A model generated the notes under the pieces. It was not told the DNA's origin. It did no database searches and was given only the letters and a program-made list of their open reading frames with translations. A stretch of DNA of 64,000 bases from an uncultured Candidatus Poseidoniales archaeon (GTDB lineage Archaea; Thermoplasmatota; Poseidoniia; Poseidoniales; Poseidoniaceae): assembly GCA_905182635.1 (NCBI GenBank), contig CAJJCM010000026.1:3568-67567 (forward strand). Direction: 5' to 3'. Positions 8,420 to 58,775 of the stretch are shown here, in pieces (positions within the stretch are counted from its first letter, which is position 1; each line of letters begins with the position of its first letter). The position numbers were made by a program, and so were the translations under genes.

Positions 8420-11400
8420 TCACTTTTTCATCGCATCGACGTATTGCCATCCGAAATGGCTCCATTGATCAAGGGTCCATCCCTGAGGTAAGCCAGTAGG
8501 TGGAATTGGTGGTGGGTCACGTGCAGTTTCAAGGGCCGGAGGTGCTGCAACTGGCTCTGCAACTGATTGCGGTGGAGGAAGAACCAATCCAATTGGTGGA
8601 GGGATATTTATATCAATTTGAGGAAGCGTCTTTGAAAGATTTAACTCTTCGAGAACATCCTCAGTTTGGTCTTCTACACCGGGTTCTAATTCACCCGAAC
8701 GAATCCGACGATTCACCACTAACAACCACATCGCAAGGCTGAGCGAGACCAGTGCAATGAGGTAGAGCACTATACTGAAAGTTCCTTCCTGTGCCTGAAG
8801 GGCAAGGGCTTCACCATCTCGAATAGTTTCTTCTTTGATGAGCAGTGGGTCGAGCGTTTTACGGTCCATTTCAACTTCATCAACCAAGACAAGAAGACGG
8901 AATTCGATATTTTCACCTGCTTTGACATTGGCGACTGTCGGGAGGGTTCCCGTGATTACAGCACCCGCAGTGGCCACAAGGTCGACACGAGCGGTATCTT
9001 GCCAGAAACCTCCATCAACTGCTCGTTGCAATACAAATGCCACATCACCTTTGCCTCCAAGGTTGCGCACTTCGAAGCCAAGTTCTACAGCTTGTTCCGA
9101 AATTGGACTTGGGTCATCCCATGAAAAGAAACTGGTTGCTGCATCAAGGTCAATACTCGGCCCGAGCAAAGCCAGGGACCAAGAGGCGATTGGTTGACTC
9201 ATTGAATTACCAAGAGTATTGAACGGATTACCCGCTGAATCAGAACCTGAAACCCAGATATCGACCATATACGATGGTAGAAGTGTCGTTGAACCAGAGT
9301 CGGTGAGGTCGAGATTCCCTGTCCAGAAAAATTGCTCGCCGAAAGGAGTCGTATCAGGCAAAGGTACACTACCTCGTGAAATCGATGCTTCACCTGCACG
9401 AACTCGATAATGCAAGACGACTGGCTTATAGAGGTCAAATCCATGGTCGTCGACTGTTTCAAGCATGACGAGTAAATCGCCACAAGCGCCAATCGAAAGG
9501 TCGGAACCAGCTGAAACTTCATTCAAAGAAATAGCAGCAATATTCGGTCGTGAACTGTCTACAGCTAATCGAACCCGCTGAACCGACGGAGTTTCATCCA
9601 TAGCCAAACCAGGTAAATCACTGAGTTCAAGACGTAAGTCAAGGTGACCAGAAGGTACCGACGGAATCAACAGATCGAGGCTAAACTCTCCATCAGAACG
9701 AGTTGATGTTTTCCATGTGTTATCGTAATCTCCAAAAACAACATCAAACGCACCGGGTGGTGCAGGTGTTTCATCCTCTGAAAAGAGCACTCGACCATTG
9801 ACACGTAATGCTTGGCCAGCACCGATGAGCGTTTCTTTGAAATCAGAATTATAGTGGTTGGTTCCATCTCGTAATTCAACAGCACGAATATGACCTTCCG
9901 TGGTATCAAACCTAAAGTCATTATCAAGGCTCCATGCATCGTTCCCTAAGCCAGCAGTTGCTTCGAAGCAGGGGGTTTCTTCCCCCACATTACAAGGTAA
10001 ATCAGTGACCATTACCTTTGGAATAATTTGACTTAGCCCATTTGTATCAAATGATTCAGGAAACGTCCAGGTCAATTGGAATCGTGCAAGGATTTTGATA
10101 ATACTGTTATTATTTTCATCAATATCAACGCTTGAGTAGAGGTTCGAGACTGCAATGTTTGCAGACCCGGATTCGATAACTGCAATCGGGTCTCCATCTG
10201 CGCCTTTGGTCAAAGTGATGAACATGGATGTTTCATCATCATTAAAATCGCCACCAAGTGCGAGTTGAATATATTGAATGTCTTGCCAACCGTTGCGGTC
10301 AGACAGAAGAATTTGTGCAGTATATGGGATACCTGGATGGAGTGGTGTTTGATCATCGTGACCGAGAATGGTTGAGTTGTCAAGGTCGAGTTCAGGTTCG
10401 AATTCGACTCGAATCCGATAGGTCGCCAAATCATTGTCCCAATTTGGAACGACTTCTCCAGGAACATATCCGCATGCGATGTTACTGACGGGGCAGACTG
10501 GCCCACCGCCCATGGCAATGTCATTGTCTTGTGCATCCTTGCCCGAAATGAAGTAAGATACGCTTTGACCATGCTGAAGCATTGAATCATCAATAAGACC
10601 GTCAAAAATATTTAATCCTCCAGTTTGGGTATCAGGTGAAGTAAGTGTTTTCATTTCATATTCATCAGCATTTGGCAAACCATCAAAGTTGTAATCACTG
10701 CAACCAATTGATACGCCGGCTTTACATCCAATCCAATAATTGAGGGTCGCTTGATTCGGAGGGTCAACTGAATCTTGAATCACGATGCTGACTGCTTGAC
10801 CACCTGGTGAAGGAGGCCCTGCGTGGCGTTCACTTCCATCATTAGGAGTCGATAAGAGTACAAGTGGTGAGTTTCCATCCAACACAAGTCGAATGGTATT
10901 GTATCCCGGGTTTGCATATACCGAACCGTTTTGCATCTGGATTGCCTCGACGTAGAAGACCATGCCACCTGGAGCAGATTCAAGTGGTGATTGGAACGTA
11001 AGATTGTATTCACCAAACGCAGGGTTTTGTTCTTGAGCCAAGAGAGTAGGTTCTCCAATTGGGTCTCCATCATAGGTGACATTTTGCCCTAACACACGTA
11101 AAGCAAACTGGCCTGCCAACGGAGTGAGTTGTGAATTTTGGAAATGGATACTGCCTGTGAACGAGAGGTTGAAACCACCACGAACCCAGTCTTGCGAGTA
11201 GAGTTCTCTGCCGGTTTCTTCAAAGACACGCAATCCATCCAACTGAATATCGTTTTCGACAATGATGTCTAAATCTTCAGTTTCCCAACCGGTGACTGCT
11301 TGACCTAAATCATCATCAACAGAAATGAGGGCTTGCAACTTGCTTTCATCATCCCAGGTCCAATTCACTGAAACTGGCATCCGGATGGATACCATTCCGA

Positions 11401-13870: not shown

Positions 13871-13892
13871 ACGCCCACCGGTTATTGAAACA

Positions 13893-20743: not shown

Positions 20744-21829
20744 ATGATGCCAAAGGGTGTGCCAACTGTGAACGCACATTCAAGCACCGTTTTGCGCCCG
20801 TCCCTTCGCCGGGAACAAAGGGCTGTGAGCGAAGTGCTTGGCGTGGTCATGATGCTCGCTATGGTGATTACAATCATGGGTGGTGTCTGGGTCTTTTTGA
20901 ATCCATACATCTCTGACTTTGAGGATAACACAAATTGGAACAGTGCAAATGGTATTGCTGAACGATTCCAGGATCGTATCGACGTTGCTGGAAGCGCCCC
21001 TGAAGGCACGGGTATTCGCCATACACTTGCGTTGCAATCAACCATGATTCAGCCGATTGAAAAAGTCGAAACGTGGACGATTGCTGCTGATTTGACTCCA
21101 TACGATGCAGTGACTGTTCGGGATGCAAACAGTTCAACTCTTGGGATTTTAGCGATGAATGAAACCGCTCGGAGTATCTCTGTTGAGACTGAAACGGGTA
21201 CTGAACATTATTTCTTCAACTCTTCACGCCAAGAGGTATTGATAACGCACACATCATCTCGACAACATTGGATGTCAGTGACTGTTTTTAATGCCGATGG
21301 AATTGCCCTCCACCGGAGTGTATCATACATCGTTTCGGGTATTCAAATCTCGACTTCTTTAGGACTCGGAGAGCATCAGATTGCTTTGATGAATGAAGCA
21401 CGAGTTGAGCGGTTCCCGAATGAGCCATGGCGGGTCACGCGATTCCCAAACCTCGAAATCGATACGTTGGTCAACGGTGAGTTCCGACTTTCATTGGTTC
21501 TCAATGATGTTACGATTAATGGCACACTCGGTTCGGGAAACAAAGTTGGTATGACTATGATTTCACTCGGACCGATGATGCTGTTCACTGGACATGCCTA
21601 TAATGTCAAATTTACAGTCATCAATGCCCTCAATGATTTAGTCACTCCCCAATACCATGACCGAATGCTTGACGAATACACTTTGAATCGAGCATCGGGA
21701 ACATTGGACACTTACATCGGATATGCCCCCTTTATGCGTGCAAGTGGCGCTGATGGATTTACCGTTGAAACTCAAGGCGCACAATTATTCTTAGAAGTTG
21801 ATGTCAAACGTGTGGAGGTTTCCAGATGA
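20744..21829 (+). CDS. Archaeal type-IV-pilin-like protein (class-III signal peptide) 1
   Basis: N-terminus RREQRAVSEVLGVVMMLAMVITIMGG matches the archaeal pilin N-terminal domain pattern: [KR]-[AG] followed by a hydrophobic helix, as in RAVSPVIGVILMVAI. The alternative GTG/TTG starts would give a short leader. The stop overlaps the next gene's start (ATGA). Confidence 0.65.
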   Translation: MMPKGVPTVNAHSSTVLRPSLRREQRAVSEVLGVVMMLAMVITIMGGVWVFLNPYISDFEDNTNWNSANGIAERFQDRIDVAGSAPEGTGIRHTLALQSTMIQPIEKVETWTIAADLTPYDAVTVRDANSSTLGILAMNETARSISVETETGTEHYFFNSSRQEVLITHTSSRQHWMSVTVFNADGIALHRSVSYIVSGIQISTSLGLGEHQIALMNEARVERFPNEPWRVTRFPNLEIDTLVNGEFRLSLVLNDVTINGTLGSGNKVGMTMISLGPMMLFTGHAYNVKFTVINALNDLVTPQYHDRMLDEYTLNRASGTLDTYIGYAPFMRASGADGFTVETQGAQLFLEVDVKRVEVSR

Positions 21830-24509: not shown

Positions 24510-24510
24510 T

Positions 24511-27095: not shown

Positions 27096-30000
27096 TCACT
27101 GTTCAGGAATATAATTTGGGTCTGGAACCCAGTTATTCGAATCTGCATCCCATATCCATCCCGGATGTTGGGCAACATGTGGTGTAGCAGAAACTTGTTG
27201 CTGAACCACCGCAGGAGTCGTTGGAACCTGTGCCGGAGGAATGCTAACGAGCTCTTTACGGGCTTTTGCCCAAGCATACGGGTCTGCAGTCACCTGTTCT
27301 TCAGCAGCCATCAACTCTGCCTCTTCATCAAGGTCGTCGTATTCGACTTGGAAGAAGAACATTCCAGCACCCAAGAGAATGATCACTCCGACAATAATTG
27401 CCAAAATCCATCCGAAGTTTGAACTCGAGGCCTCTCCATCTCCAACACTGAGTTGAAACATAGCTTCGGAATTTTCACCGGGCAATCTAAAGACTTGGTC
27501 ATCCATTTCGAAAATGATGTTACGCGACCCTTCATTTCCAGCGAGTTGATTACTTGAGATTTCCATACTCCAAGTAGCATCAGCATTGACACGTGTTGAG
27601 TTAAGTCTCAGACCGCTCAAACTATCGTAGCGTGCTTCAATGACGCTGTTTGGTAATCCTTGACCGCTGAAATAGGCTGGCGAACCAGGGCCTAATGGGC
27701 CGTCTCCATCTCGTGTGACGGTGAATGACACTTCAACGACAATTATGTTTACTTTGGCAGAAAATGCTACCGAATCATAGGAATCTCTGGCTTCAAACAT
27801 CAAACCTATAAGCGACCATTCTGAAATATCGTCAGGAAGACCTGTTACAAATGCAGGATTATATTTCACAACTCCATTCGCGTCAAATGTTAGATAATTC
27901 ACGTAATCGTCATCTTCAAAGTTTCCTGGATCGTCATAGACATCGAAGGTGAGTCCATTTGTACTACTACTCACAGGGCCATCAGGGTCAGAAAAGTGAT
28001 CAGTCAAATCGATGCTAATTCCACTATTACAGCGATCTTGTTTTTGTGTATTTGAATCACAGAAAAGAGTAATTGTACTTACCCAATTTGAGTAGTTGAA
28101 CTCCGGGATGAGGTTGTCTGCATCACTCGGATTGTCGATGGTGATTCGGATACTGGATTCCACCGAGTAACTCTTCCCATCCCATGATTTGATGAACAAT
28201 TCATATTGTTGGTCGTGTATAAGATTAGAAGTGTCCCAGGTCGTCTGCCATCCGCCGTTTGGGGCGAAAGTAGTGACTGGGTCCGGGCCGTTATTGATTT
28301 TGGCCCCACTGGCTAAATCATAGATTGTTATTTCAACTCGGGTTACCAAACCATCGTTGTCAAAAGCCCAACCCTCAATCAATTGAGTTTCATTGGCGCG
28401 AAGAATATCGTTGAGTACAGGAGAATTCACTGTGACAAATGGAATTGCGTTTTCAGTGTTCACGCTAATTGTGCGGCTTTCATAGGCACAATCCATCCAA
28501 CTGCTCTTAAGATTACAGAAATCACTGTCAGATGCCCAAATACGGAAAGTATAATCTCCAGTTTGTAATTCTTGGAACATCCAGTCATATGCCCAGGCAG
28601 TTGAACCAGGGATATCAAAATTAGCAGTGTAATCATTTGGCCCGTTAATATCAAACCAAATTGAATTGATGTCACTGCCCCAAGTACCTGAATAGGGGTC
28701 GCTCGCAGTGCCCGTGAATGTCACTTTGGCATTGTCGTGGAAAGTTCCATCATTTGGAGTATTAACCAAAATGCTTGGAGCAACGAGATTGAGTTTGTAC
28801 TTCCGGACTTCCACTGGAGAGTAATCCAATCCGTCATATGAACGAACGCGGAATGTCACATCGCCTTCACCTTCTGGGTGAGCAGACATCTCCCAATCAA
28901 AGTTCCAGGTCTTGAAAGGATGATTCGATTTTGTAATCATGCCGGCAGCACCTGATACATCAATTGCAGAATACCAATCACTTGAACCAGGAGGTTTAAC
29001 TTCAACTCGCTTGATAATACCAAATTGATTTTGATACGCAACGAAGTCAGAATTGCCGTAAGGTCCGGAGATGCCGTCCCATGAAGTACCTGTTAACGTA
29101 ACAGTTGTCGCAAATGAGAATCCATCGTTTTGTGTGACGGTTACGCTCGGTTTGAGGTTATCAAGATTGATCACATCATCAATTGAGCCACTGAGAACAA
29201 AGTCGAATTCCTTTTGCCCTTTACCAAACATGTAAGCTTCTACAAAGTAAAACGGCAATTCGCGGCCATTGGTACAATCGGCATCTTCAGAATCCACTTT
29301 TGTATCGCCGTCATTGTCATAGCCGTCTGCACAAGAATTCTCATCGAGCCAGACAGCAGGAATGGTATTATCATCCTGAACTCGGACATTAAGTTCACCG
29401 ACCAAATGATTCCAATCCCGGTCAAGTAAGAAATCTGAAGGAAGGGATACTTCAGGTGTAAATCCAAAGGCGTCTGTTGTAAGGGTGTAGAGCGGCAAAC
29501 CTGTTGCATCACGAATGATCACTGTTGCATCGACAACGTTGCTGTTCTTTGCTTTGACTTGGTAACGCACCAGTTCACCTTCTCGAACTTGACTTCCCCA
29601 AGCCGAGTTTTGATTTTGCACATGGATTTTAGATGAATCAAAATTCTGTAAATTCGCATATGAGAACACAGTGGAATTCTCTATGACTTCAAGGGCCATT
29701 GGCATAAAAGCCGGAGGCATAAGGGAAGTCGATGGAACCAATAGACATTCTGCGAGGATTAACGGGCATTCTGGACTGAGCCAACTCAGTTGAACTGGAT
29801 ACAATTCATTGCCACCAGCATCCGGAATAAATTCCGATTGAACAATAACTCGTGATTCAGTAATATTGTAGACTTGGGAGGCATTTGTATACGTATTACC
29901 GGAGAAGTACGCAATAGAGCCATACTTGCTGCCAGCGTTATCATCATAATGAGAAATATTTACCGCAAATCCTGTAACTTCGATTGTATTTCTCTGAGCA

Positions 30001-31529
30001 TTGACGATACCACCTTTGATTCGCATTCCATCGCCACCATTGTTGGTCACCGTATTATCATAGAGTGTAGCGGATGACATGAATACATGTATTGCTGGAC
30101 AGGCAAACTCTCCACCATACAATTGGGAATTACAAACACCTGTGTTGTTTGAGATTTGGTTGTTGGCGAAATATAATCGAGCCGCTGTTGGAGTTGGGAT
30201 GCCTTGCCAACTGGAGTCTCCAAAGTGGTATTCTCCAATCAAGACTGCTTCAGCACCAGTGTCTTGGATTGTATTATTTTCTGCACTCACATCCGAAGTA
30301 CCATAAATCCACAATCCATTGTAGCCGGTAATTGGGCCAATCACGTTATTATTTGCAACGACAAAGGAATCACGAATACCGAATCCAGAACCTTTATCAG
30401 CACCAGAAATTGTGTTTCCAGTTGCTTCAACAATTGCACCATCGTAGGCGGTAATTCCTGCACCCTCTACGGTTGTAATGATGTTGTCGCTAAGATAGAG
30501 AGTATGGTTGATTGTCCCAGTGACTTTGTGAGAATTGGTGTCAATCCCGTTGCATTTGACAATGAGGGTCGAGTCGGTTAATGAACCGGAACTTTGTTTC
30601 AAATACACACCTTGTGCATTCTCGTTGATGTCAAGCCGTGAAAAATCAATGTACGAACTTTCTATGTGAATCATACTTCGTCCGTCGTCGCATGATGGTT
30701 CTGTAGTTCCAGTAAAGACTGAATCACGAACCTTCATTGTGGCTAGAATTCCTGCACCTGCACCATAAGCACGGATTGCTGCTGCATCATATCCACTTCC
30801 ATCAATTCCGAGTGTAAATGTGGAATCAGTAATCGTCGGGGATGCTAAATCAAGAGCAAGGATGTTTGAAGTATTGATGTCTTTGAAAGAGAGCCCAGTA
30901 GCGGTTGTTGACGAGCCATCAAACACCAAGACTCCGTATTGCTTACCACTCACTTGGCTGGCGTCAAAAGGAAAACCGTATGCATTTTCAAAGTGAGCAA
31001 ACTTGATCGAAGTGATTGCCTGGTCAATTGTCGACCGAATAATCATCCCCGAACCACAGCCTGTGTCATCGTTCCAATTTGGATTATTACTATTGTTTGA
31101 ATAACATCGTCCAGTGATGGTATAATCAGTAGGTGTCGACCAAACGAATCGTGCTTGGTTACCAGCAGAACCGGAACTTGCGCCACATGAATTATCTGCG
31201 ATACAAATCGCACCTTCGACATCGATATAGGCTCCATATGGAAGGTTGATTGTCGTTCCAGCATTGACAATGAGTTGTGCACCTTCGGCAACGGTAACAT
31301 CACCGTCAAGGTTCATAGTGCCAGTCCAAGTTTCAGTACCGGAGATTATACCCGACTTCGTTTCGTTCACCGCAGATGCGGCTGGTATGGTAATCAATCC
31401 AGTTAAGATGGAAAGCAACAGGAGTGCAACCAACGATATGCTTTTGCGTGATGTTGTGTTCTTCAAAATAGACACCTCTTCATTCCCCCCACTTTCCTCT
31501 CGAATATAAGACTGCGCCTCTATTGCCAC
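27096..31529 (-). CDS. Giant (1477 aa) surface protein with right-handed parallel beta-helix (PbH1/NosD-like) repeats, Ig-like domains, a C-terminal transmembrane anchor and a Trp-containing cytoplasmic tail
   Basis: Signal peptide (LVALLLLSILTGLITIPAASA). Repeated GxxxNNxI/T beta-helix rungs (NTISGADKGSGFGIRDSFVVANNNVIG...). Cys/Asp-rich CADGYDNDGDTKVDSEDADC motif. Transmembrane segment WILAIIVGVIILLGAGMFFF. Tail ends HPGWIWDADSNNWVPDPNYIPEQ. Confidence 0.8.
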   Translation of the reverse strand: MAIEAQSYIREESGGNEEVSILKNTTSRKSISLVALLLLSILTGLITIPAASAVNETKSGIISGTETWTGTMNLDGDVTVAEGAQLIVNAGTTINLPYGAYIDVEGAICIADNSCGASSGSAGNQARFVWSTPTDYTITGRCYSNNSNNPNWNDDTGCGSGMIIRSTIDQAITSIKFAHFENAYGFPFDASQVSGKQYGVLVFDGSSTTATGLSFKDINTSNILALDLASPTITDSTFTLGIDGSGYDAAAIRAYGAGAGILATMKVRDSVFTGTTEPSCDDGRSMIHIESSYIDFSRLDINENAQGVYLKQSSGSLTDSTLIVKCNGIDTNSHKVTGTINHTLYLSDNIITTVEGAGITAYDGAIVEATGNTISGADKGSGFGIRDSFVVANNNVIGPITGYNGLWIYGTSDVSAENNTIQDTGAEAVLIGEYHFGDSSWQGIPTPTAARLYFANNQISNNTGVCNSQLYGGEFACPAIHVFMSSATLYDNTVTNNGGDGMRIKGGIVNAQRNTIEVTGFAVNISHYDDNAGSKYGSIAYFSGNTYTNASQVYNITESRVIVQSEFIPDAGGNELYPVQLSWLSPECPLILAECLLVPSTSLMPPAFMPMALEVIENSTVFSYANLQNFDSSKIHVQNQNSAWGSQVREGELVRYQVKAKNSNVVDATVIIRDATGLPLYTLTTDAFGFTPEVSLPSDFLLDRDWNHLVGELNVRVQDDNTIPAVWLDENSCADGYDNDGDTKVDSEDADCTNGRELPFYFVEAYMFGKGQKEFDFVLSGSIDDVINLDNLKPSVTVTQNDGFSFATTVTLTGTSWDGISGPYGNSDFVAYQNQFGIIKRVEVKPPGSSDWYSAIDVSGAAGMITKSNHPFKTWNFDWEMSAHPEGEGDVTFRVRSYDGLDYSPVEVRKYKLNLVAPSILVNTPNDGTFHDNAKVTFTGTASDPYSGTWGSDINSIWFDINGPNDYTANFDIPGSTAWAYDWMFQELQTGDYTFRIWASDSDFCNLKSSWMDCAYESRTISVNTENAIPFVTVNSPVLNDILRANETQLIEGWAFDNDGLVTRVEITIYDLASGAKINNGPDPVTTFAPNGGWQTTWDTSNLIHDQQYELFIKSWDGKSYSVESSIRITIDNPSDADNLIPEFNYSNWVSTITLFCDSNTQKQDRCNSGISIDLTDHFSDPDGPVSSSTNGLTFDVYDDPGNFEDDDYVNYLTFDANGVVKYNPAFVTGLPDDISEWSLIGLMFEARDSYDSVAFSAKVNIIVVEVSFTVTRDGDGPLGPGSPAYFSGQGLPNSVIEARYDSLSGLRLNSTRVNADATWSMEISSNQLAGNEGSRNIIFEMDDQVFRLPGENSEAMFQLSVGDGEASSSNFGWILAIIVGVIILLGAGMFFFQVEYDDLDEEAELMAAEEQVTADPYAWAKARKELVSIPPAQVPTTPAVVQQQVSATPHVAQHPGWIWDADSNNWVPDPNYIPEQ

Positions 31530-49082: not shown

Positions 49083-50426
49083 TCATTCAAACTGAGTAAG
49101 CGAAGACTGCGAGGGTTTAATCCATTCACGGACATTGATTTCGAGTTCATCTCGAATCGCATCAGGGACGAAAATAAGCACTCGCTCGTTTGGCTGGCTG
49201 AGTGAACGGACCAGCGGCGAGTGATCGGCTGCATCTCGGCCATCTTCAAGGATAATTCCTTGTTCATAAGGCATGTAGCCACGTTTTGAGATGCGAGCTG
49301 TGATGACATCGATTGAGGGATTGTATCCAGCAGCTTCAACCAGAGGCTTGAGTCTTGGTAAGACCACATCAACCATTTCAGCAGAGAGGCCTTCAATCCG
49401 CAACGATTTATGGAAATCTCTACGTGAGAGCAAACGCATTGCATAATGGGCCAAAATTGTGTCCTGGTGCTCTGCCCACTCGGGTAAAGCCACGCGTATG
49501 TGTGCATCATTCAATGCAGCATATCCTTTGGCATCAAGTGCGGGATTCAACAACATATTCTCGAGTGGTGGTGAGAGTTGGAGTGAACCTTCTTTGGCAA
49601 GATTACGAGCACGTGAAAGCATTCTGACAAGATAATTTTGAGTCAACATATTGACTTTATGGAAATAGACTTGATGATACATATGGTAACGAGTAACAAG
49701 ATAGGCTTCGATTGCAGGCAAGCCCCACGATTTCACATAGAAATGACCCTCTTTGTTGACACGCAGCGCACGAATAACCCGAGCAATGTCAAAACCGCCG
49801 ATTTGTGCACCTGTATTTGCTTGGTCTCGAACCATGTAATCCATACGGTCAACATCCAGTTGACTGGAGACTATTTCTTTCATGTAAGGTGGAATCGTAA
49901 TCCCTTCGTGTTCAGATGCTCCATCCATGAGTGCGAATAAACGATCTCGGCGTTGTTGGCCGAGTACCTCGAGGAGTGCCATTCCGATTTCAGTATCTTC
50001 GGATTCCAGTAAGACTCGGCCCCAGTGTTCATGTGAATGATAGGTCGCAAACACTTCTGGAGTTTCCAACACGTGTGAAAATGGTGGGTGGCCAATATCG
50101 TGAAGCAATGCAGCTAATCGGATCAGTTCACTGTCTTCACCTGAAACAAGGTTGGGCTGAACTTCATTGAGCGAAGAGATCAATGTTCCTGCCAAGTGGT
50201 AGGCGCCGAGTGAATGTGAAAAACGATTATGGTTGGCGGCGGGGAATACATACTCACAGGTAGAGAGTTGTTGGATTGAACGAAGACGTTGAAACTCACG
50301 TGTATCGATTATTTTTGCATGGCTCGCAGGAACGAGAATATCTTTGTGAATCTCATCACGAATCACACGGTCACGCATAGCCATCCCCATGAAGCGGTCT
50401 GCTTTTCCATTAAAAAGGCCCCGCAC
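49083..50426 (-). CDS. HD-domain dNTP triphosphohydrolase-like protein (dGTPase / SAMHD1-like family)
   Basis: RDRVIRDEIH...IIDTREFQRLRSIQQL...RFSHSLGAYHLAG and LHDIGHPPFSH (HD motif). Typical dGTPase-family N-terminal architecture. The start may be an internal Met. Confidence 0.8.
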   Translation of the reverse strand: MRGLFNGKADRFMGMAMRDRVIRDEIHKDILVPASHAKIIDTREFQRLRSIQQLSTCEYVFPAANHNRFSHSLGAYHLAGTLISSLNEVQPNLVSGEDSELIRLAALLHDIGHPPFSHVLETPEVFATYHSHEHWGRVLLESEDTEIGMALLEVLGQQRRDRLFALMDGASEHEGITIPPYMKEIVSSQLDVDRMDYMVRDQANTGAQIGGFDIARVIRALRVNKEGHFYVKSWGLPAIEAYLVTRYHMYHQVYFHKVNMLTQNYLVRMLSRARNLAKEGSLQLSPPLENMLLNPALDAKGYAALNDAHIRVALPEWAEHQDTILAHYAMRLLSRRDFHKSLRIEGLSAEMVDVVLPRLKPLVEAAGYNPSIDVITARISKRGYMPYEQGIILEDGRDAADHSPLVRSLSQPNERVLIFVPDAIRDELEINVREWIKPSQSSLTQFE

Positions 50427-50475
50427 GCAAAAAAACTTGGTGATTTGCGAAATAACAACTGAATGCTAAGGGACA

Positions 50476-52257: not shown

Positions 52258-52266
52258 GGTATTCAC

Positions 52267-53778: not shown

Positions 53779-53858
53779 ACAGGATTAAGTTATTCTTCGG
53801 AAAGGCTTAGGGAAAGTGATATGCCCTTAGACCGAATCCATGGCATGTTGGTGATACC

Positions 53859-56800
53859 ATGAATGCCGTCGTTCGCTCCCTCTGCCTCGCAACCCTCATG
53901 GTGATTTCAATAATTGCCCCCTTTGGTATTTCATCTCTTGAAGAGGTACCTGATGTGCCTGCAACTTCCAGTCGTTCACTGGCTTGTACAGGTGATATCT
54001 GCCTTAACGAAGCACTTCCAAATCCAAACGGCTACGATAATGCAAGTTGGTCAGGTGGCGAATGGATGGAGATTCATAACTCGGGAAACACAACCGTTGA
54101 TGTTCGAGATTGGTATTTAACCAATAAGGCTTCCAAAACTCTGTACTTCAATTCGACCTCGATTGTTGATTACGATACTATGGATTCTACCAGTTGGGAA
54201 ATTGAACCGGATGAATACATGGTCATCGCTCGAAATGGATTGCCAAGCTCGATTTTTTATCTGGCGAATACAAATGACATCATCTCGTTGTTCAATTCTT
54301 CCGGTGTTCAACTTGACCAAGCGACATGGACCTTTTCATCCTCTGCTCCTTCAGGCTCAAGCCTTGAAGAAGACAGTTTCAGTGCAACTGGTGACTGGGT
54401 TGCTACAAACGGTCCAACACCTGGCGCCATCAACTCTGGAGGCTCAACGGGTGGCCCAACTGTATACCCTTCTGATCTTGTCATCAATGAAGTCATGTCC
54501 AACCCTTGGCCTTCTTTCGATAACGCAACATGGCCAGGAGGCGAATGGGTTGAAATCTTCAACTCCGGAATGACCGCTATGAACTTGACAGGATGGTCCC
54601 TTCAAGATACTGCAGGCAATATTCTTGCCTTTGACGAAAACCATCTCGTCGGATATACGAACGATTCCAATTCGACCATCATCGCTCCGGGTGATACAAG
54701 AATCATTGCCGTTAACGGTTCTGGGAATTCTGGTGTATTGAACAATGGTGTCGAAACATTATCCTTGTTTTGGCCAAATGGAACCAAAGCACAACAAATC
54801 TCTTGGACTGATACTGAAGCTGGATTCGCACTTGTCGAGAGTTCATCATCCCAATACTGGACCTATGCTGCCTACCCAACTCCAAATGCAAGTAACCCTC
54901 TTGATTTTTCTATAATTGCCTCTACTCCCTCACCAATTGAATTTGCTGAATTATTATCAAACAGCAGTTCAGATGGTTCTACTTTCCCAGATGGGGAGTG
55001 GATTGAATTGCTCAATACTGGAAACACAACGGTGGATTTGTCAGGTTGGTCAGTCATTGATGGAATGGGTAATGTCACGTATCTAGACCCTGGTTCACTT
55101 GTCTTCAACCAAACTCAAGGTGCTACTTCAATTGATGCTGAAGAGCGACGACTGATTCAATTTAATGCTGATACTGAACTATGGGATTATTACAATCAAC
55201 TCATGCTTCGTGATTCAACTGGATTGATTGTTGATTCTGCTTGGTATACAACTGATTACGGTGAAAACATTTCGCTGATTCCTGCGGAAATGGATGCAGA
55301 CCCATGGGTCCCATCAACCTGGATGACACCCGGTCAACCAGACCCTGGTGAAACACCTTCAACAGGCCTCGCGATTTTCACCGAAGTATTTCCGGATGCT
55401 GTTGGCAATGATAATCAACAATGGCCCCTTGGAGAATGGCTTGAAATATACAACAATGGGACCGCTGCGCTTGACGTAGGTGGGTGGAAATTACAGTCCT
55501 CCAATAGTCGTTCACTGACTCTGCATCAATTCAACATGCCGCTCCAAGCAACCTCGATTATTCAACCGGGAGATGTCGCATTAATTGCTTTGAATGGTAC
55601 CACAAGTTTTTACCTAAAACACACGACTCCAGACTCTATTATCTTGATTGATGGAAACGGGAACATGGTTGATTCTATCTCTTGGGTTTCTACGACTGAA
55701 GGTGAATCTTTGATTGCTCCAAACAGCACGCACGCAGGTGCTGGACCTCTTGGAACAGGTGCATCAAACGGCAGTGATTGGATTCAATCCGCTTGGGCAA
55801 CTCCAGGCGAGGGGAATCCAGTTTGGCCAATGTATGCAGGCACCCATGACCTGGTTCTCACTGAAATTTTGGCGTATTGCAATGATGATTCAATCGACCC
55901 ACTGGAAGATTGGGTCGAAGTCATGAACGTTGGCACTCTTGATCTCAATTTGAGCCGATGGAGAGTTGATTCAAGTGATGGAGACCGACGCTTTTTCAGA
56001 ACAACTTCAATGTGGAATCAAACTGATGATTCGATGCTCCTCGCCCCACAAGAGCGCGCTGTCCTGCTGATGGAAAACAATGTAATTTCAGGTTTAGGAG
56101 ACCAATTACAACTCTCGGATCCTGATGGGAATTCGGTTCAAATGGCACAATGGAACATCGTCAGTGATTGCCAAACGATGGGGCCTGGCGAGACTGAACT
56201 CGACGGTTGGGAATTACTCCTTTGGCCAACTCCTGGCTACGAAGAGCCAGATGCGACCCTTTTTGCTGAGGCACAAGATATTGTCTTCAGCCGCTTTATG
56301 CCCGAAGGTTCAACCTCCATTTCAAGTAATACAGAATTCATTGAAATTACGAACATCGGTGATAGCCTTGCTTACATGGAGGGATGGACCTTCACACTCA
56401 TCAATTCAGCAAATGAAGCCACGGATTATTCCTTTGGTGAAGTCGCGATTCCTTCCAACGGTTCGGTGATTCTTGCTTCAGACCCAAGCGGTCTTTCTGT
56501 CTACGAAGATGGCACAATCATTGGATTTGATTCTGCCATGTCCATCTCGGGATTGACACTTCCTGATTCAGGGGCTGCTCTTCAGATATCAACGCCTTCG
56601 GGTGTCCTTGCAGATACAGTGGTCTACGGTAACGGTCCAGTTGAATCCGCAGGTTGGAGTGGTATTAGTTTGGTCGAACCTGTCACCAGTCTTTCTCTTC
56701 TTGTTTATCATCGCGGCGATGGATGTGGCAATTTACCAGATACTGATGTCGCCTTGGATTGGCAACATCGTTGGGGACGTTTAGGTGCAAGCACCTTCTG

Positions 56801-58775
56801 TGGTCCAACACTGTTCTCAGGCATAAGTACCATCACGCCATTGATTGGTCCTCAAGAAGGCCTCGTTGACTTGGTCGCCTGGATTGACAATGCTACTGAA
56901 TCGTTACATGTTCACCTTTATCAGATCGAACAGCCAAATTTGGTTCAAGCACTCATTGAAGCACATAACCGAGGTGTTGATGTTACCGTAGTTCTTAACG
57001 CTGCGGAATACTGGTGGAATAATTACGATAAGAACAACCAACTCGGCACGGCAAACATACTTGCAACTGCTGGAATCAATACGTTCTGGTTTGGTGGACA
57101 AAATGATGACCCTTATTCCTATATTCACAGCAAAGTAGCCGTAAAAGACAATGGAAGTGTATGGATTGGTTCAGGTAATTGGAAGAGTTCCTCACAACCT
57201 GCACCTGGTGAACGCGGAAACTCTGAATGGGGAGTCTTAATCGATAACGCAGACCTTGCTCAAAAGGTCATGAATCAACTTGCCTATGATGAATCTTCGA
57301 GTCGCACCTACATCACACAAGTCTACCCAGGTTCAGCACCATCCGATTGGTCGATGGATGCACTCAAACCCCTTGTCAATGGAACGATGGCGGAACCGAT
57401 TACAACCAATGTGTCTGGCCGTCTCATCACGTGCCCAGACACTTGTATTGACGGCTTGGTCTGGATGATTGAACAAGCAGATGAAGAAATTCTATTGTCG
57501 TTGCAATATCTCGATGTGGATTGGAGCTGGGGTTGGGGAGAGAATCCAATTGTCACCGCTTTGGAAAACGCTGCACAAAGTGGCATTCGTATTCGTTTGA
57601 TTTTGAACGGTGCTTATCTCGATAAGGATATTCAAGATGTCGTTGATACCTTCAATGAAGAATGGAACTCGACCCTTGGATACGACATCAATGCGATCAT
57701 CATGAGTGAAGATGATGAAGTTTCGAAATTGCATAACAAGGGTGTTATTGTTGATGCTGAGCACGTACTGATTTCATCAATTAATTGGGGTGATTCTGCC
57801 ACAACACGGAACCGTGAAATGGGCCTCATTCTCAGTAGCGCAGAAGTCACTGCTCCTTTCCTTGCTGGATGGTATCGGGATTGGGTCCGTACTGACAATG
57901 TGACGGATACCGATAACGATGGTCTGCCGGATTATTGGGAAGTGGCCAATGGACTCAACCGTACAACACGCACTCTTGCCATGCTCAATATTCTTGAGGG
58001 AGCGTATGATGCGGATGGAGATGGATTACTGAATGAAGTGGAATACATTTTCGGTAGTCATGCAACCAATCCTGATACCGATGGAGATTGTATTCCAGAT
58101 GCAATCGAAGTTTCGTGGGCACAAGCAACTGCTCAAGATTCTACGATTCCTGATGTCTCTCCAACCGCAGCATTGACACTTGCTGATGCTGATGGCGATG
58201 GTGTCAATGAATCAGAACTTCTTGGCTGTGACCTTGGTGGAATTCTGACTGATGGAAATCAAACTCTCATTGACAACAGCACATTAGATGATGACGCTGA
58301 TATGGTCATCAATCGGGATGACATCTGCCCGAATACCGGTGCAAATATTCCAGTTAACGTCGATGGTTGCTCGACTGAACAGAGAAATGCTAATGCTGCA
58401 CCGAGTGCCGATACAAGTTCTAATTTCGCCTCTGGAATGATGCTTACGTTCATGCTTGCAGGAATCGGATTGGCTGCTGGAGCATTCCTCATCTTGAGGA
58501 ACATCGAAACTGAGGGTGAAGAAATCAAGGATTTGATTACCATCGAGAGTGAAAACCTCGACGCACTTGCTGAAACGAATATTGATGCTGACAATTGGAA
58601 TATGCCGGTTCTTGACGGGAGTGGAGAAGCACCAATGCCTTCGGGACTTTCATCCGAAGATCTCGCACGTTGTCCAGGGTGGCCAGAAGCAACGATTCAA
58701 TCCTATCTTGACCAGGGATGGTCGATTGACCAACTGGCGGAGTACTATCAAGAACAGGTCAATGAACACGCTTGA
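53859..58775 (+). CDS. Giant (1638 aa) surface-anchored protein with six lamin-tail-like domains, a phospholipase-D / Nuc-type two-HKD domain, TSP3 repeats, a C-terminal transmembrane anchor and a Trp-containing tail
   Basis: Signal peptide MNAVVRSLCLATLMVISIIAPFGISS. Six LTD-like repeats (for example LVINEVMSNPWPSF...GEWVEIFNSGMTAMNLTGWSLQD). HKD motifs YIHSKVAVKDNGSVWIGSGNW (about 57122-57180) and LHNKGVIVDAEHVLISSINWG (about 57729-57790). DTDNDGLPDYWE and DTDGDCIPDAIE loops. Transmembrane segment MMLTFMLAGIGLAAGAFLIL. Tail ends CPGWPEATIQSYLDQGWSIDQLAEYYQEQVNEHA. Confidence 0.8.
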   Translation: MNAVVRSLCLATLMVISIIAPFGISSLEEVPDVPATSSRSLACTGDICLNEALPNPNGYDNASWSGGEWMEIHNSGNTTVDVRDWYLTNKASKTLYFNSTSIVDYDTMDSTSWEIEPDEYMVIARNGLPSSIFYLANTNDIISLFNSSGVQLDQATWTFSSSAPSGSSLEEDSFSATGDWVATNGPTPGAINSGGSTGGPTVYPSDLVINEVMSNPWPSFDNATWPGGEWVEIFNSGMTAMNLTGWSLQDTAGNILAFDENHLVGYTNDSNSTIIAPGDTRIIAVNGSGNSGVLNNGVETLSLFWPNGTKAQQISWTDTEAGFALVESSSSQYWTYAAYPTPNASNPLDFSIIASTPSPIEFAELLSNSSSDGSTFPDGEWIELLNTGNTTVDLSGWSVIDGMGNVTYLDPGSLVFNQTQGATSIDAEERRLIQFNADTELWDYYNQLMLRDSTGLIVDSAWYTTDYGENISLIPAEMDADPWVPSTWMTPGQPDPGETPSTGLAIFTEVFPDAVGNDNQQWPLGEWLEIYNNGTAALDVGGWKLQSSNSRSLTLHQFNMPLQATSIIQPGDVALIALNGTTSFYLKHTTPDSIILIDGNGNMVDSISWVSTTEGESLIAPNSTHAGAGPLGTGASNGSDWIQSAWATPGEGNPVWPMYAGTHDLVLTEILAYCNDDSIDPLEDWVEVMNVGTLDLNLSRWRVDSSDGDRRFFRTTSMWNQTDDSMLLAPQERAVLLMENNVISGLGDQLQLSDPDGNSVQMAQWNIVSDCQTMGPGETELDGWELLLWPTPGYEEPDATLFAEAQDIVFSRFMPEGSTSISSNTEFIEITNIGDSLAYMEGWTFTLINSANEATDYSFGEVAIPSNGSVILASDPSGLSVYEDGTIIGFDSAMSISGLTLPDSGAALQISTPSGVLADTVVYGNGPVESAGWSGISLVEPVTSLSLLVYHRGDGCGNLPDTDVALDWQHRWGRLGASTFCGPTLFSGISTITPLIGPQEGLVDLVAWIDNATESLHVHLYQIEQPNLVQALIEAHNRGVDVTVVLNAAEYWWNNYDKNNQLGTANILATAGINTFWFGGQNDDPYSYIHSKVAVKDNGSVWIGSGNWKSSSQPAPGERGNSEWGVLIDNADLAQKVMNQLAYDESSSRTYITQVYPGSAPSDWSMDALKPLVNGTMAEPITTNVSGRLITCPDTCIDGLVWMIEQADEEILLSLQYLDVDWSWGWGENPIVTALENAAQSGIRIRLILNGAYLDKDIQDVVDTFNEEWNSTLGYDINAIIMSEDDEVSKLHNKGVIVDAEHVLISSINWGDSATTRNREMGLILSSAEVTAPFLAGWYRDWVRTDNVTDTDNDGLPDYWEVANGLNRTTRTLAMLNILEGAYDADGDGLLNEVEYIFGSHATNPDTDGDCIPDAIEVSWAQATAQDSTIPDVSPTAALTLADADGDGVNESELLGCDLGGILTDGNQTLIDNSTLDDDADMVINRDDICPNTGANIPVNVDGCSTEQRNANAAPSADTSSNFASGMMLTFMLAGIGLAAGAFLILRNIETEGEEIKDLITIESENLDALAETNIDADNWNMPVLDGSGEAPMPSGLSSEDLARCPGWPEATIQSYLDQGWSIDQLAEYYQEQVNEHA

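What the first reader, a model, noticed from the sequence alone, without database searches (positions are those of the whole stretch)
8420..58775. Shared Trp-rich C-terminal cytoplasmic tail motif on three unrelated giant type-I surface proteins
Three proteins have different ectodomains yet the same ending. Each finishes with one transmembrane helix, a basic stop-transfer, an 85-100 aa Pro/acidic tail, and then a terminal motif. The proteins and motifs are:
- Low-complexity protein: LPQGWTLDQWSHFGWQYVD, encoded about 8423-8491.
- Beta-helix protein: HPGWIWDADSNNWVPDPNY, encoded about 27099-27167.
- LTD-PLD protein: CPGWPEATIQSYLDQGWSIDQLAEYY, encoded about 58671-58772.
A conserved PGW...(LDQ)W...Y cytoplasmic terminus on otherwise unrelated surface giants looks like a dedicated sorting, export or anchoring signal, or a docking site for a cytoplasmic partner. 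The other large proteins in the island lack it: the AglB fusion, the 567-aa protein with the acidic tail, and the 1917-aa TSP3 protein.
Basis: seen in the sequence. Interest (0 to 1): 0.7.

Follow-up and report, generated by a model that had tools for sequence, protein, structure and literature searches.

The report
Shared cytoplasmic tail module, archaeal surface proteins
Two of the three proteins (the low-complexity giant and the LTD-PLD protein) end in the same previously undescribed ~27-residue tryptophan-rich module. This module sits on the cytoplasmic tails of hundreds of otherwise unrelated surface proteins of the abundant marine archaea Poseidoniales, and probably acts as a common docking handle. 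The third protein carries a different, family-specific tail motif.

Summary
The window is a Poseidoniaceae (Marine Group II) contig. All three giant proteins have a signal peptide, an ectodomain, one TM helix and an 82-97 aa tail ending in a Trp-rich motif, at the stated coordinates.

**P1 and P3 share a real motif.**
- The P1/P3 match scores 42 against shuffles of 17.3±3.7 (0/5000).
- The profile-profile comparison gives E 8e-6 (0/200 column shuffles).

**P2 is different.** Its HPGW[IL]WDxxxNxWVxDPNY is invariant in 77 orthologue loci but not detectably related to the other two.

**The P1 motif belongs to a large undescribed family.** The consensus is PP[LIV]PxxGLPxGW[TS]MEQWx[HY]YGxQ[YW]L[DE].
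- An exhaustive profile search found 617 representative proteins.
- Carriers include subtilases, arylsulfotransferase-like proteins, β-propeller proteins, CARDB/PKD proteins and the P1 family. P3 is a tandem-core variant.
- The module lies on the cytoplasmic side. In ~70% of tails its Trp is 17-21 residues from the C-terminus. It also occurs N-terminally in one N-in protein.
- AlphaFold2 predicts a Pro-rich segment plus a helix.
- There is no Pfam, NCBIfam, PDB or literature match.

**Best reading:** a folded docking handle on a flexible cytoplasmic tether. The partner and the function are unknown.

The parts
8420..13870 (-). P1: 1816-aa type-I surface protein with no Pfam domain. It is a canonical carrier of the tail module.
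   Evidence: ORF and translation. No Pfam family. Orthologues P0011-P0103.
8714..8776 (-). P1 transmembrane helix (SIVLYLIALVSLSLAMWLLVV), followed by NRRIR.
   Evidence: Kyte-Doolittle mean 2.54 over 21 aa.
8423..8713 (-). P1 cytoplasmic tail: 97 aa, 18% Pro, with a variable linker.
   Evidence: The linker is not conserved among orthologues.
8435..8515 (-). P1 tail module PPPIPPTGLPQGWTLDQWSHFGWQYVD: a Pro-rich segment, then GLPxGW, then a capped aromatic helix.
   Evidence: Translation. Conserved in 58 distinct orthologue tails. Seeds a profile that finds 617 representative proteins. AlphaFold2: helix at residues 28-43 of the 44-aa query, pLDDT 82-91 over the module.
53859..58775 (+). P3: 1638-aa type-I protein with six Lamin-tail-domain stretches, two PLD-like stretches and a TSP3 repeat. 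It carries a tandem-core variant of the module.
   Evidence: Pfam. Orthologues P0293-P0357.
58434..58496 (+). P3 transmembrane helix (GMMLTFMLAGIGLAAGAFLIL).
   Evidence: Kyte-Doolittle mean 2.10.
58593..58622 (+). P3 tail, upstream conserved island NWNMPVLDGS (W..PVLDG).
   Evidence: Conserved in the P3 orthologue tails listed.
58671..58712 (+). P3 core 1: CPGWPEATIQSYLD. Distant orthologues read PGWTAEQVQKYLD, which fits GW[TS]xEQhxxY.
   Evidence: AlphaFold2 helix at residues 33-41 of the 61-aa query.
58713..58760 (+). P3 core 2: QGWSIDQLAEYYQEQV. It is in register with the canonical W[TS]x[DE]Q[WL]xxY....[LV][DN].
   Evidence: Segment score 42 vs P1, 0/5000 shuffles. hhalign of the canonical vs P3-type profiles: probability 83.5%, E 8.3e-6, 0/200 column shuffles. 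AlphaFold2 helix at residues 46-60.
27096..31529 (-). P2: 1477-aa type-I protein with a right-handed beta-helix and a Big_7 domain. It carries a different, family-specific tail motif.
   Evidence: Pfam. 78 related loci in Poseidoniales genomes.
27345..27407 (-). P2 transmembrane helix (ILAIIVGVIILLGAGMFFFQV), followed by an acidic stretch and no basic residues.
   Evidence: Kyte-Doolittle mean 2.65.
27261..27284 (-). P2 tail, juxtamembrane conserved island DPYAWAKA.
   Evidence: At least 95% column conservation of DPYAW.K in 74 distinct orthologue tails.
27111..27167 (-). P2 terminal motif HPGWIWDADSNNWVPDPNY. Family consensus: HPGW[IL]WDxxxNxW[VA]xDP[ND]Y.
   Evidence: Invariant H,P,G,W,W,D,N,W,D,P across orthologues down to 37% identity. 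Not related to the canonical module: hhalign probability 0.1% and score at the shuffle mean.

Best explanation
P1 and P3 end in versions of one undescribed module of about 27 residues. Its consensus is PP[LIV]P-x-x-GLP-x-GW[TS]-M-E-Q-W-x-[HY]-Y-G-x-Q-[YW]-L-[DE].

**What is shown**
- The module is conserved at the peptide level.
- It is shared by many unrelated membrane-anchored exoproteins of Poseidoniales.
- It lies on the cytoplasmic side, tethered to the TM helix by a 26-219 aa variable linker rich in Pro, Ala, Glu, Ser and Gln.

**What is predicted**
- A Pro-rich stretch packs next to a Ser/Thr-x-x-Glu-capped aromatic helix, forming a small folded knob. P3 has two tandem helix cores and lacks the Pro-rich prefix.

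**What is inferred**
- The knob is a common docking handle. A conserved cytoplasmic or inner-face partner would use it to hold, sort or organise the cell's surface enzymes and adhesins.
- It would work together with other short tail elements: a juxtamembrane acidic-Trp site, ANSMYGG.Q.IFQQ, VQNITYNISDSAISG, and a terminal LLDDLDL.

**P2**
- P2's HPGW[IL]WD...N.WV.DPNY is a separate tail motif, restricted to the P2 family in the sequence sampled here. It may do an analogous job but is not the same element.
For: **Real and selected**
- P1/P3 segment score is 42 against shuffles of 17.3±3.7.
- The canonical and P3-type profiles align with E 8.3e-6, 0/200 column shuffles.
- The motif is kept in P1 orthologues (58 distinct tails) and P3 orthologues (62 distinct tails) while the linkers diverge.
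- In 16 tandem paralogue pairs, 106 of 190 identical non-Trp/Met residues use different codons.

**Modular**
- 617 representative proteins match at E<=1e-3 among 1.84 billion.
- More than 600 pattern matches were found in JGI metagenomes, 541 of them confirmed.
- Carriers include an S8 subtilase (1651 aa), arylsulfotransferase-like proteins (830-1036 aa), a beta-propeller protein (806 aa), CARDB/PKD/NPCBM_assoc proteins (~1100-1300 aa), the P1 family, and small proteins.

**Cytoplasmic**
- K+R average 2.76 in the 12 aa after the TM and 0.34 before it.
- A 2-TM N-in/C-in carrier exists, P0227.
- An N-in protein carries SAP domain + module + acidic linker + TM.

**Folded rather than a bare peptide**
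- AlphaFold2 with a 50-sequence alignment gives mean pLDDT 81 and 91 in the core. The helix spans residues 28-43 and the Pro-rich part is confident.
- The P3 tail is predicted as three short helices with pLDDT 76-86.

**Not a membrane anchor**
- Module net charge averages -3.0, with 0.4 K+R per module. Hydrophobic moment is 0.36 and mean hydrophobicity is -0.08.

**Tails look like multi-site platforms**
- Several further conserved short elements recur in different combinations.
- Every LLDDLDL-ending carrier is followed, tightly coupled, by one conserved ~190-aa gene.
Against: - No partner was identified. Neighbours of carriers are mostly housekeeping genes in conserved synteny.
- All strongly conserved residues could be explained by the module's own fold, leaving no obvious binding surface.
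- The AlphaFold2 model is of a 44-residue peptide. Coordinates were not inspected, so Pro-helix packing is inferred from confidence values only.
- Foldseek found no analogue.
- Taxonomic names are available for only a few members, so restriction to Poseidoniales is not proven.
- The number of carriers per genome was not measured.
Confidence: 0.5

Rival explanations
1. The module is a self-association or structural knob. It would dimerise or cluster tails of different surface proteins in cis, forming patches or a coat. Alternatively it would simply act as a folded stopper that stabilises the single-TM anchor. No separate partner protein would be needed.
For: - The conserved residues are mostly aromatic, Pro, or helix-capping, which fits fold or self-packing.
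- AlphaFold2 predicts a compact unit.
- Many different carriers in one organism share it, and 16 of 80 loci have two carriers in tandem.
- No partner gene was found.
Against: - A stopper would not need near-invariant sequence across hundreds of proteins.
- The linker length is highly variable (26-219 aa).
- The module is strongly acidic (net charge -3), which disfavours simple self-clustering without a bridging factor.
Confidence: 0.2
2. The module is a recognition tag for a processing, sorting or quality-control machine. Examples would be a cytoplasmic or intramembrane protease that sheds or turns over the ectodomains, a dedicated insertion or retention factor, or sorting into vesicles.
For: - The position is constrained. 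In ~70% of tails the Trp lies 17-21 residues from the C-terminus.
- The module is restricted to membrane-anchored exported proteins.
- There is a conceptual parallel with C-terminal sorting tags of other prokaryotes.
Against: - About a quarter of tails extend 30-85 aa beyond the module, and one protein has it N-terminally, so a free C-terminus is not required.
- It emerges from the ribosome after the ectodomain is already exported, so it cannot target export.
- No sortase-like or protease gene is consistently adjacent.
Confidence: 0.15
3. The module is an interfacial membrane-binding helix. The Trp/Tyr-rich amphipathic helix would loop back and lie in the inner leaflet, acting as a second anchor.
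For: - It is rich in Trp and Tyr.
- The helix is predicted to be amphipathic.
- The linker is long enough to reach back to the membrane.
Against: - Net charge is -3.0 with almost no Lys or Arg.
- Mean hydrophobicity is -0.08 and the hydrophobic moment is only 0.36.
- Polar Glu, Gln and the GLP/PPLP positions are near-invariant (91-100% in the pooled tails), which generic membrane binding does not require.
Confidence: 0.08
4. The three tails resemble each other only by chance or by Trp-rich composition.
For: For P2 vs P1 and P2 vs P3, the similarity is no better than shuffles.
Against: For P1/P3 this is excluded by:
- 0/5000 sequence shuffles and 0/200 profile shuffles reaching the observed scores;
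- 0 regex hits in 975,462 aa of background;
- conservation in orthologues;
- 617 family members.
Confidence: 0.02

Closest known systems
C-terminal sorting tags of prokaryotic surface proteins (PGF-CTERM/archaeosortase, LPXTG/sortase, PEP-CTERM/exosortase)
   Same: A short conserved element near the C-terminus, next to a single TM helix, shared by many unrelated exported proteins of one lineage.
   Different: - In those tags the signature lies on the outer side immediately before the TM. The protein then ends in a few basic residues, and the tag is cleaved by a membrane transpeptidase.
- Here the element lies 26-219 residues after the TM on the cytoplasmic side.
- The tail is 82-97 aa in the window proteins.
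- No NCBIfam sorting-signal model reaches its cut-off.
WW domain (PF00397)
   Same: - The module starts with (G)LPxGW, then has Gly about 8 residues later and Tyr-[Leu/Val]-[Asp/Asn]. This resembles strands 1-2 of a WW domain.
- WW domains are the best, though non-significant, PDB sequence hits (E 0.28-0.7).
- hhalign against a small WW set gives P 1.3e-4, with 1/200 column shuffles reaching it.
- The module also contains PPLP, a known ligand type of class II WW domains (my own knowledge).
   Different: - There is no second Trp 20-22 residues on and no Trp-x-x-Pro. The Trp-Trp spacing is 5.
- Most proteins end 3-8 residues after Y-L-D, so a third strand cannot exist.
- AlphaFold2 predicts a helix, not a sheet.
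- There is no Pfam WW hit even at E<=10.
Pancreatic-polypeptide fold and Trp-cage miniproteins (polyproline helix packed on an aromatic alpha-helix)
   Same: The size is similar (~30 residues). The order is a Pro-rich stretch, a turn, then an amphipathic helix with Trp/Tyr on one face. The Pro-rich stretch is predicted with high confidence although it has no regular secondary structure.
   Different: There is no sequence relationship. Packing was not verified on coordinates. Foldseek found nothing. Those peptides are secreted hormones or designed proteins, not membrane-protein tails.
Eukaryotic cytoplasmic-tail docking motifs of type-I receptors and adhesins (integrin NPxY, cadherin catenin-binding region, PDZ ligands, GYF ligands PPGW)
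   Same: Both are type-I surface proteins with a flexible cytoplasmic tail carrying one or more short conserved elements, shared across different ectodomains.
   Different: This is an archaeon and no adaptor is known. The element is longer and probably folded. No homology is implied.
FtsZ C-terminal peptide bound by SepF (PMC8178401)
   Same: - This comparison concerns only the extra terminal ...DLLDDLDL* found on one carrier sub-family. It is an acidic-hydrophobic C-terminal peptide resembling the LDDFI/DLDV part of FtsZ tails that sits in the SepF groove.
- The gene that always follows these carriers has SepF-like organisation: an N-terminal amphipathic segment, a linker and a ~90-aa core.
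   Different: - The SepF assignment is weak: 1 of 12 members hits Pfam SepF at E 0.0076, and hhalign probability is 0.5%.
- The archaeal FtsZ 'GID' signature is absent.
- This sub-family and its neighbouring gene are not in the window.

Membership tests
Archaeosortase/sortase/exosortase-type C-terminal sorting signals (PGF-CTERM, LPXTG, PEP-CTERM) | Signature motif on the extracytoplasmic side, directly N-terminal to the TM helix. | tested here: not met
   The motif lies after the TM helix, 26-219 aa downstream in 169 tails. The window proteins have 82-97 aa tails with the motif at the end.
Archaeosortase/sortase/exosortase-type C-terminal sorting signals (PGF-CTERM, LPXTG, PEP-CTERM) | The protein ends a few, mostly basic, residues after the TM helix. 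| tested here: not met
   The tails are 97, 82 and 92 aa.
Archaeosortase/sortase/exosortase-type C-terminal sorting signals (PGF-CTERM, LPXTG, PEP-CTERM) | Match to the curated NCBIfam/TIGRFAM sorting-signal models. | tested here: not met
   The only hit is LPXTG_anchor on the P3 TM region, at E 4.1 and 8.2 bits against a cut-off of 15.9. There is no PGF-CTERM or PEP-CTERM hit.
Archaeosortase/sortase/exosortase-type C-terminal sorting signals (PGF-CTERM, LPXTG, PEP-CTERM) | A cognate sortase-like enzyme encoded in the genome. | not testable with these tools
   None was seen among the window's annotated genes. The rest of the genome could not be read.
WW domain | Two Trp 20-22 residues apart, the second followed by x-x-Pro. 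| tested here: not met
   The conserved Trp residues are 5 apart. In ~70% of tails only 17-21 residues remain from the first Trp to the C-terminus.
WW domain | Match to the Pfam WW model or a significant match to solved WW domains. | tested here: not met
   No Pfam hit at E<=10. PDB profile search gives WW domains only at E 0.28-0.7. hhalign P is 1.3e-4, but 1/200 column shuffles reach it and only strands 1-2 are covered.
WW domain | Three-stranded antiparallel beta-sheet. | tested here: not met
   AlphaFold2 predicts a 16-residue alpha-helix with pLDDT about 90.
Polyproline-helix/alpha-helix miniprotein (pancreatic-polypeptide or Trp-cage type) | A Pro-rich extended segment packed against the aromatic face of a following alpha-helix, forming an autonomous fold of ~30 residues. 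| tested here: inconclusive
   AlphaFold2 gives a helix at residues 28-43. pLDDT is 82 over residues 11-20 (Pro-rich) and 91 over residues 21-30, with pTM 0.53. Contacts were not inspected. Foldseek against PDB found no match.
Cytoplasmic-tail docking element (functional class, not a homology family) | Located on the cytoplasmic side of the membrane. | tested here: met
   Positive-inside bias: 2.76 K+R after the TM against 0.34 before it. N-terminal signal-like segments in P1-P3. A 2-TM N-in/C-in carrier, P0227. The module lies next to a SAP domain in an N-in protein. This is prediction only, with no experimental topology.
Cytoplasmic-tail docking element (functional class, not a homology family) | A conserved element embedded in a fast-evolving, low-complexity linker and shared by proteins with unrelated ectodomains. 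| tested here: met
   (motif vs linker). (unrelated ectodomains). (synonymous differences).
Cytoplasmic-tail docking element (functional class, not a homology family) | An identified binding partner. | not testable with these tools
   No consistent neighbour was found.
P2 motif as a member of the P1/P3 module family | Profile similarity beyond the PGW tripeptide. | tested here: not met
   hhalign probability is 0.1% vs canonical and 1.1% vs P3-type. The score of 7.4 is below the column-shuffle mean of 8.6.

The most novel reading that the evidence does not exclude
Poseidoniales may wire their whole set of membrane-anchored surface enzymes and adhesins to the cell interior through eukaryote-style modular cytoplasmic tails.
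- The tails would combine a folded PPLP-GLPxGW-helix handle with several short linear motifs: an acidic-Trp site, VQNITYNISDSAISG, and a terminal LLDDLDL.
- Dedicated adaptors would read these elements.
- One candidate adaptor is the ~190-aa protein encoded directly after the LLDDLDL carriers. It has a SepF-like layout and a WW-like P.GW.GP.TPDGE.FHDL segment.
- If so, this would be an archaeal surface-to-cytoskeleton or divisome coupling system with no described counterpart in prokaryotes.
Probability: 0.2. Interest if true: 0.85.

Novelty: new variant of a known kind. Interest (0 to 1): 0.68.

Why it matters
Marine Group II archaea are among the most abundant heterotrophs of the surface ocean. 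They are uncultured, and their cell envelope and surface-protein biology are essentially unknown.

**What the result provides**
- One sequence module marks the cytoplasmic ends of hundreds of their exposed proteases, sulfotransferase-like enzymes, nuclease/phospholipase-like proteins and adhesins. That gives a simple handle for cataloguing their surface proteome.
- It points to an unrecognised intracellular machinery that organises, retains or regulates that proteome.
- It would be the first general cytoplasmic-tail module described for prokaryotic surface proteins. Known prokaryotic tags all act on the outer face of the membrane.

**Why it is testable**
- The module is short, probably self-folding and highly conserved. 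Peptide structure, pull-downs and complex prediction are all practical.

Tried and rejected
- **Pfam and NCBIfam scans** of the three tails at E<=10 found nothing relevant. The weak DUF433, GltJ and LPXTG hits are all below cut-off.
- **Word-indexed protein search with a 48-aa tail profile** returned only 10 short fragments. That tool favours targets of similar length, so the exhaustive representative search was used instead.
- **P2 as a member of the same motif family** was rejected.
- **'GWVPDPSY' in the 736-aa pilin-like DUF7289 protein (21826-24036)** resembles P2's WVPDPNY. Distant orthologues read WVPVPSH inside a globular region, so this is coincidence.
- **The HTH-STAND-TPR gene next to P2 as a specific partner** could not be supported. 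The whole AglB-S8-P2-STAND-pilin region is syntenic in essentially all 77 loci, so adjacency is uninformative.
- **Viral contigs** contain only an internal PEGWSIEQWIYY in an 876-aa portal-like phage protein, which is unrelated.
- **Foldseek of both AlphaFold2 models against PDB** found nothing.
- **Recurrent neighbours of carriers as partners** are mostly housekeeping genes in synteny (TBP, mevalonate kinase, thermosome, Lon, GlmS, Maf, KaiC-like, judged by reading the sequences).
- **SepF identity of the ~190-aa neighbour** was not established.
- **The 150-aa protein after P1 vs that neighbour**: no similarity.
- **DNA-level homogenisation as the cause of conservation** was rejected, because 56% of identical residues use different codons.
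- **Literature**: 0 papers contain the motif string, and nothing relevant appears for Poseidoniales tails.
Full report
**Source and setting**

The window matches marine metagenome contigs and a MAG (GCA_046710865.1) exactly. Close relatives of its genes are all Candidatus Poseidoniales/Poseidoniaceae, that is Marine Group II archaea. G+C content is even, at 0.43-0.49.

The region encodes:
- archaeal pilin-like proteins and a 3204-aa protein containing an STT3/AglB domain;
- an S8 peptidase and an HTH-STAND-TPR protein;
- several large secreted proteins, among ordinary housekeeping genes.

**The observation**

- P1: 8420-13870(-), 1816 aa.
- P2: 27096-31529(-), 1477 aa.
- P3: 53859-58775(+), 1638 aa.

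Each has an N-terminal hydrophobic signal-like segment and one strong C-terminal TM helix. The tails are 97, 82 and 92 residues. The ectodomains are unrelated: no Pfam domain for P1, Beta_helix+Big_7 for P2, and LTD+PLD for P3.

Some details of the description are inexact.
- Only P1 has a basic cluster after the helix. P2's tail starts EYDDLDEE.
- Only P1's tail is Pro-rich.
- No other ORF in the window ends in such a motif.

**Chance or not**

The last 30 residues of P1 and P3 share LPQGWTLDQWSHFGWQYVD / LDQGWSIDQLAEYYQEQVN, one residue out of register relative to the C-terminus. The ungapped BLOSUM62 score is 42, against 17.3±3.7 for composition-preserving shuffles (0 of 5000).

A regular expression for the core had no match in 975,462 residues of six-frame ORFs from 78 related loci.

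P2 scores 21 against P1 and 18 against P3, exactly what shuffles give. For P2 it fails as a claim of the same motif.

- *P1:* 58 distinct orthologue tails keep PP[LIV]PP[TS]GLPxGW[TS]x[ED]QWxx[FY]G[WHQ]x[YF][LIV][ED] down to about 45% identity, while the preceding linker is free to vary.
- *P3:* 62 distinct tails keep W..PVLDG and [FCV]PGW..E..[IVM]Q.[YF][LM]..GW[TS].[DE]QL..[YW]YQ.Q down to about 35% identity.
- The more distant P3 orthologues read PGWTAEQVQKYLDSGWTEDQLAEWY. That is two tandem copies of the core GW[TS]xEQhxxY.
- *P2:* orthologues were found in 77 of the 78 Poseidoniales loci. All keep HPGW[IL]WDxxxNxW[VA]xDP[ND]Y and a second island, DPYAW.K, down to 37% identity.

None of the three motifs is lost in orthologues.

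**A large modular family**

A 32-position profile of P1-type tails was scored against 1.84 billion representative proteins.
- 617 matched at E<=1e-3 and 86 at E<=1e-10.
- Among the 150 listed, nearly every match lies at the extreme C-terminus.
- One listed hit, P0170, is a false positive on a GLPHGF repeat.

Of these, 541 were confirmed and 80 loci were kept, containing 96 modules. Sixteen loci have two carrier genes in tandem.

Pooling 241 distinct tails gives the following conservation. Positions that the selecting regex fixed are not counted as evidence.

| Position | Conservation |
|---|---|
| P, P | 93% each |
| [LIV] | 99% |
| P | 100% |
| x x G L P x G W [TS] | fixed by the regex |
| M | 73% |
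| E | 91% |
| Q, W | 100% each |
| [HY] | 94% |
| Y | 94% |
| G | 100% |
| Q | 86% |
| [YW] | 99% |
| L | 88% |
| [DE] | 77% |

Carrier ectodomains are diverse:
- an S8 subtilase of 1651 aa;
- arylsulfotransferase-like proteins of 830-1036 aa;
- a beta-propeller protein of 806 aa;
- a large set of ~1100-1300-aa CARDB/PKD/NPCBM_assoc proteins;
- the P1 family;
- a 357-aa protein and a 2-TM protein.

With many sequences, single-linkage clustering merges the Ig-repeat carriers into one superfamily. The enzyme-bearing carriers, P1 and P3 are clearly unrelated to it.

The few named members are Poseidoniaceae, Poseidoniales or 'Euryarchaeota archaeon', all annotated as hypothetical.

P3 belongs to this family as a variant. 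hhalign of the canonical profile against the P3-type profile gives probability 83.5%, E 8.3e-6 and score 28.2. Column shuffles give 10.4±2.7 with a maximum of 22.2 (0/200).

P2 does not belong. Its probabilities are 0.1% and 1.1%, and its score is at the shuffle mean.

**Topology and position**

Lys+Arg average 2.76 in the 12 residues after the TM helix and 0.34 before it.

The module also occurs in two other topologies:
- at the C-terminus of a predicted N-in/C-in 2-TM protein, P0227;
- in L104, in the N-terminal part of an N-in protein, directly after a SAP domain (Pfam E 2.8e-6) and before an acidic linker and the TM helix.

So the module appears always cytoplasmic but not always terminal. 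In 170 of 241 tails the Trp is 17-21 residues from the end. About a quarter extend 30-85 residues further.

The distance from the TM helix is 26-219 residues (median 64). The linkers are rich in Pro, Ala, Glu, Ser and Gln.

**Selection level**

In 16 within-locus tandem paralogue pairs, 106 of 190 identical non-Trp/Met residues of the core use different codons. Conservation therefore acts on the peptide, not through DNA homogenisation or an overlapping nucleic-acid element.

**Structure**

AlphaFold2 on the last 44 residues of P1, with a 50-sequence alignment, gives:
- mean pLDDT 81 and pTM 0.53;
- a helix over LDQWSHFGWQYVDAMK;
- pLDDT 82-91 over the Pro-rich and GLPQGWT segments.

The [TS]-x-x-E after GW is a classical helix N-capping box (established knowledge).

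The P3 tail is predicted as three short helices, each GW directly preceding one, with pLDDT 76-86. Foldseek found no analogue for either model.

The module is acidic and not strongly amphipathic:
- mean net charge -3.0;
- 0.4 Lys+Arg per module;
- hydrophobic moment 0.36;
- mean hydrophobicity -0.08.

**Comparison with known families**

- No Pfam or NCBIfam model matches.
- The literature library has no paper with the motif string, and nothing on Poseidoniales tail motifs.
- Sortase-, archaeosortase- and exosortase-type signals are excluded by topology and by the models.
- The nearest sequence resemblance is to the first two strands of WW domains (LPxGW...G..Y[YL][DN]).
  - PDB E-values are 0.28-0.7.
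  - hhalign gives P 1.3e-4, reached by 1/200 shuffles.
  - The defining second Trp-x-x-Pro, the length and the predicted fold all fail. I treat this as a resemblance, not membership.
- A polyproline-plus-aromatic-helix miniprotein (pancreatic-polypeptide or Trp-cage type) is the best structural analogy, but it is unverified.

**Mechanism**

Shown:
- a conserved, modular, cytoplasm-facing element on a flexible tether;
- carried by many exported enzymes and adhesins of one archaeal order.

Predicted:
- it folds on its own.

Inferred:
- it is a docking handle for a conserved intracellular or inner-face partner that retains, sorts or organises surface proteins.

In favour of a platform model, the tails carry further short conserved elements in varying combinations:
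- a Trp in acidic context 10-25 residues after the helix, in 88 of 168 linkers;
- ANSMYGG.Q.IFQQ;
- VVQNITYNI[ST]DSA[IV]SG, which occurs in tails of P1 orthologues, P2 orthologues and other carriers, and so links the P2 family to the same repertoire;
- a terminal ...DLLDDLDL* on one sub-family.

That sub-family is followed in all 29 cases by a tightly coupled ~190-aa gene, with a gap of -37 to +9 nt. The protein has this layout:
- an N-terminal MGNLWQFFGLPDPE segment;
- a linker;
- a WW-like P.GW.GP.TPDGE.FHDL segment;
- a core only faintly SepF-like.

In M. smithii, the part of the FtsZ tail that lies in the SepF groove is LDDFI (PMC8178401). This is a lead to a partner class, not a result.

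Rival explanations (self-association or stopper, processing or sorting tag, interfacial membrane helix) are listed with their tests. The last is disfavoured by charge and hydrophobicity.

**Limits**

- No complete genome could be scanned, so carriers per genome and enrichment statistics are missing.
- Taxonomy rests on a few named members.
- Topology is predicted, not measured.
- Model coordinates could not be inspected.
- No partner was identified.

**Verdict**

- It is wrong in lumping P2 with them.
- The functional interpretation remains a reasonable but untested inference.
- The module appears undescribed.

Noticed in passing
L088-L167 (e.g. L094 6593-10201 and 10143-10757; L101 6554-10198 and 10186-10755): One carrier sub-family continues 50-86 aa past the Trp module and ends in ...[SA]L[SA]DLLDDLDL* (28 ORFs). 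In all 29 loci where the neighbour gene is seen, a conserved ~190-aa gene follows the carrier at -37 to +9 nt. Its layout is N-terminal MGNLWQFFGLPDPE, a linker, a WW-like P.GW.GP.TPDGE.FHDL segment, and a faintly SepF-like core. This gene is a possible tail partner.
   Followed up: partly
L010, L042, L053, L057, L063, L070 (P2 orthologue tails); P0034, P0066, P0110 (P1 orthologues); P0153, P0219, P0243, P0251: A third tail element, VVQNITYNI[ST]DSA[IV]SG[DN][IL], appears sporadically before or after the terminal motif in tails of different carrier families, including P2's. It contains two N-x-S/T sequons although the tail is predicted to be cytoplasmic.
   Followed up: partly
L104 1558-3945 (+): A membrane protein carries the Trp module in its N-terminal cytoplasmic part, directly after a SAP domain (Pfam E 2.8e-6). 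A very acidic linker and a TM helix follow. This is the only non-C-terminal instance seen.
   Followed up: partly
window 7958-8410 (-): A 150-aa soluble protein with no Pfam match starts 9 nt after the P1 stop codon. A 49%-identical orthologue sits 17 nt after a distant P1 orthologue (L168 7230-7652). The conserved C-terminal end is GPGQLFSP.EIP.D[WF]*. The whole region is syntenic, so linkage is suggestive only.
   Followed up: partly
window 24511-27036 (-): An 841-aa HTH + AAA_16 (STAND) + TPR protein lies 59 nt downstream of P2. It is much better conserved (68-92% identity) than P2 itself across 77 loci. TPR domains commonly bind terminal peptides, but the entire neighbourhood is syntenic.
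   Followed up: partly
window 32979-42593 (-): A 3204-aa protein contains an STT3/AglB oligosaccharyltransferase domain fused to a very long extracellular region. It ends in a TM helix plus a short basic tail and has no Trp module.
   Followed up: no
window 20744-24036 (+): Two adjacent archaeal pilin-like/DUF7289 proteins of 361 and 736 aa. The larger has GWVPDPSY near its C-terminus, which mimics P2's WVPDPNY. It drifts to WVPVPSH in distant orthologues, so this is coincidence.
   Followed up: yes
L084 4536-7166 (also L085-L087, IMG/VR contigs): An 876-aa portal-like phage protein (my reading of the sequence, not tested) contains an internal NVPEGWSIEQWIYYAEIIGW. This was the only confirmed match to the motif pattern in the viral collection and is unrelated to the tail module.
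   Followed up: yes
L088-L167 linkers; window 27261-27284 and 58593-58622: About half of all carrier linkers (88 of 168) have a single Trp 10-25 residues after the TM helix in an acidic context (WD[SDE], WSE, WAD). It is often followed by ...P and, in one group, by ANSMYGG.Q.IFQQ. P2 (DPYAWAKA) and P3 (NWNMPVLDG) have comparable juxtamembrane Trp islands. P1 does not.
   Followed up: partly
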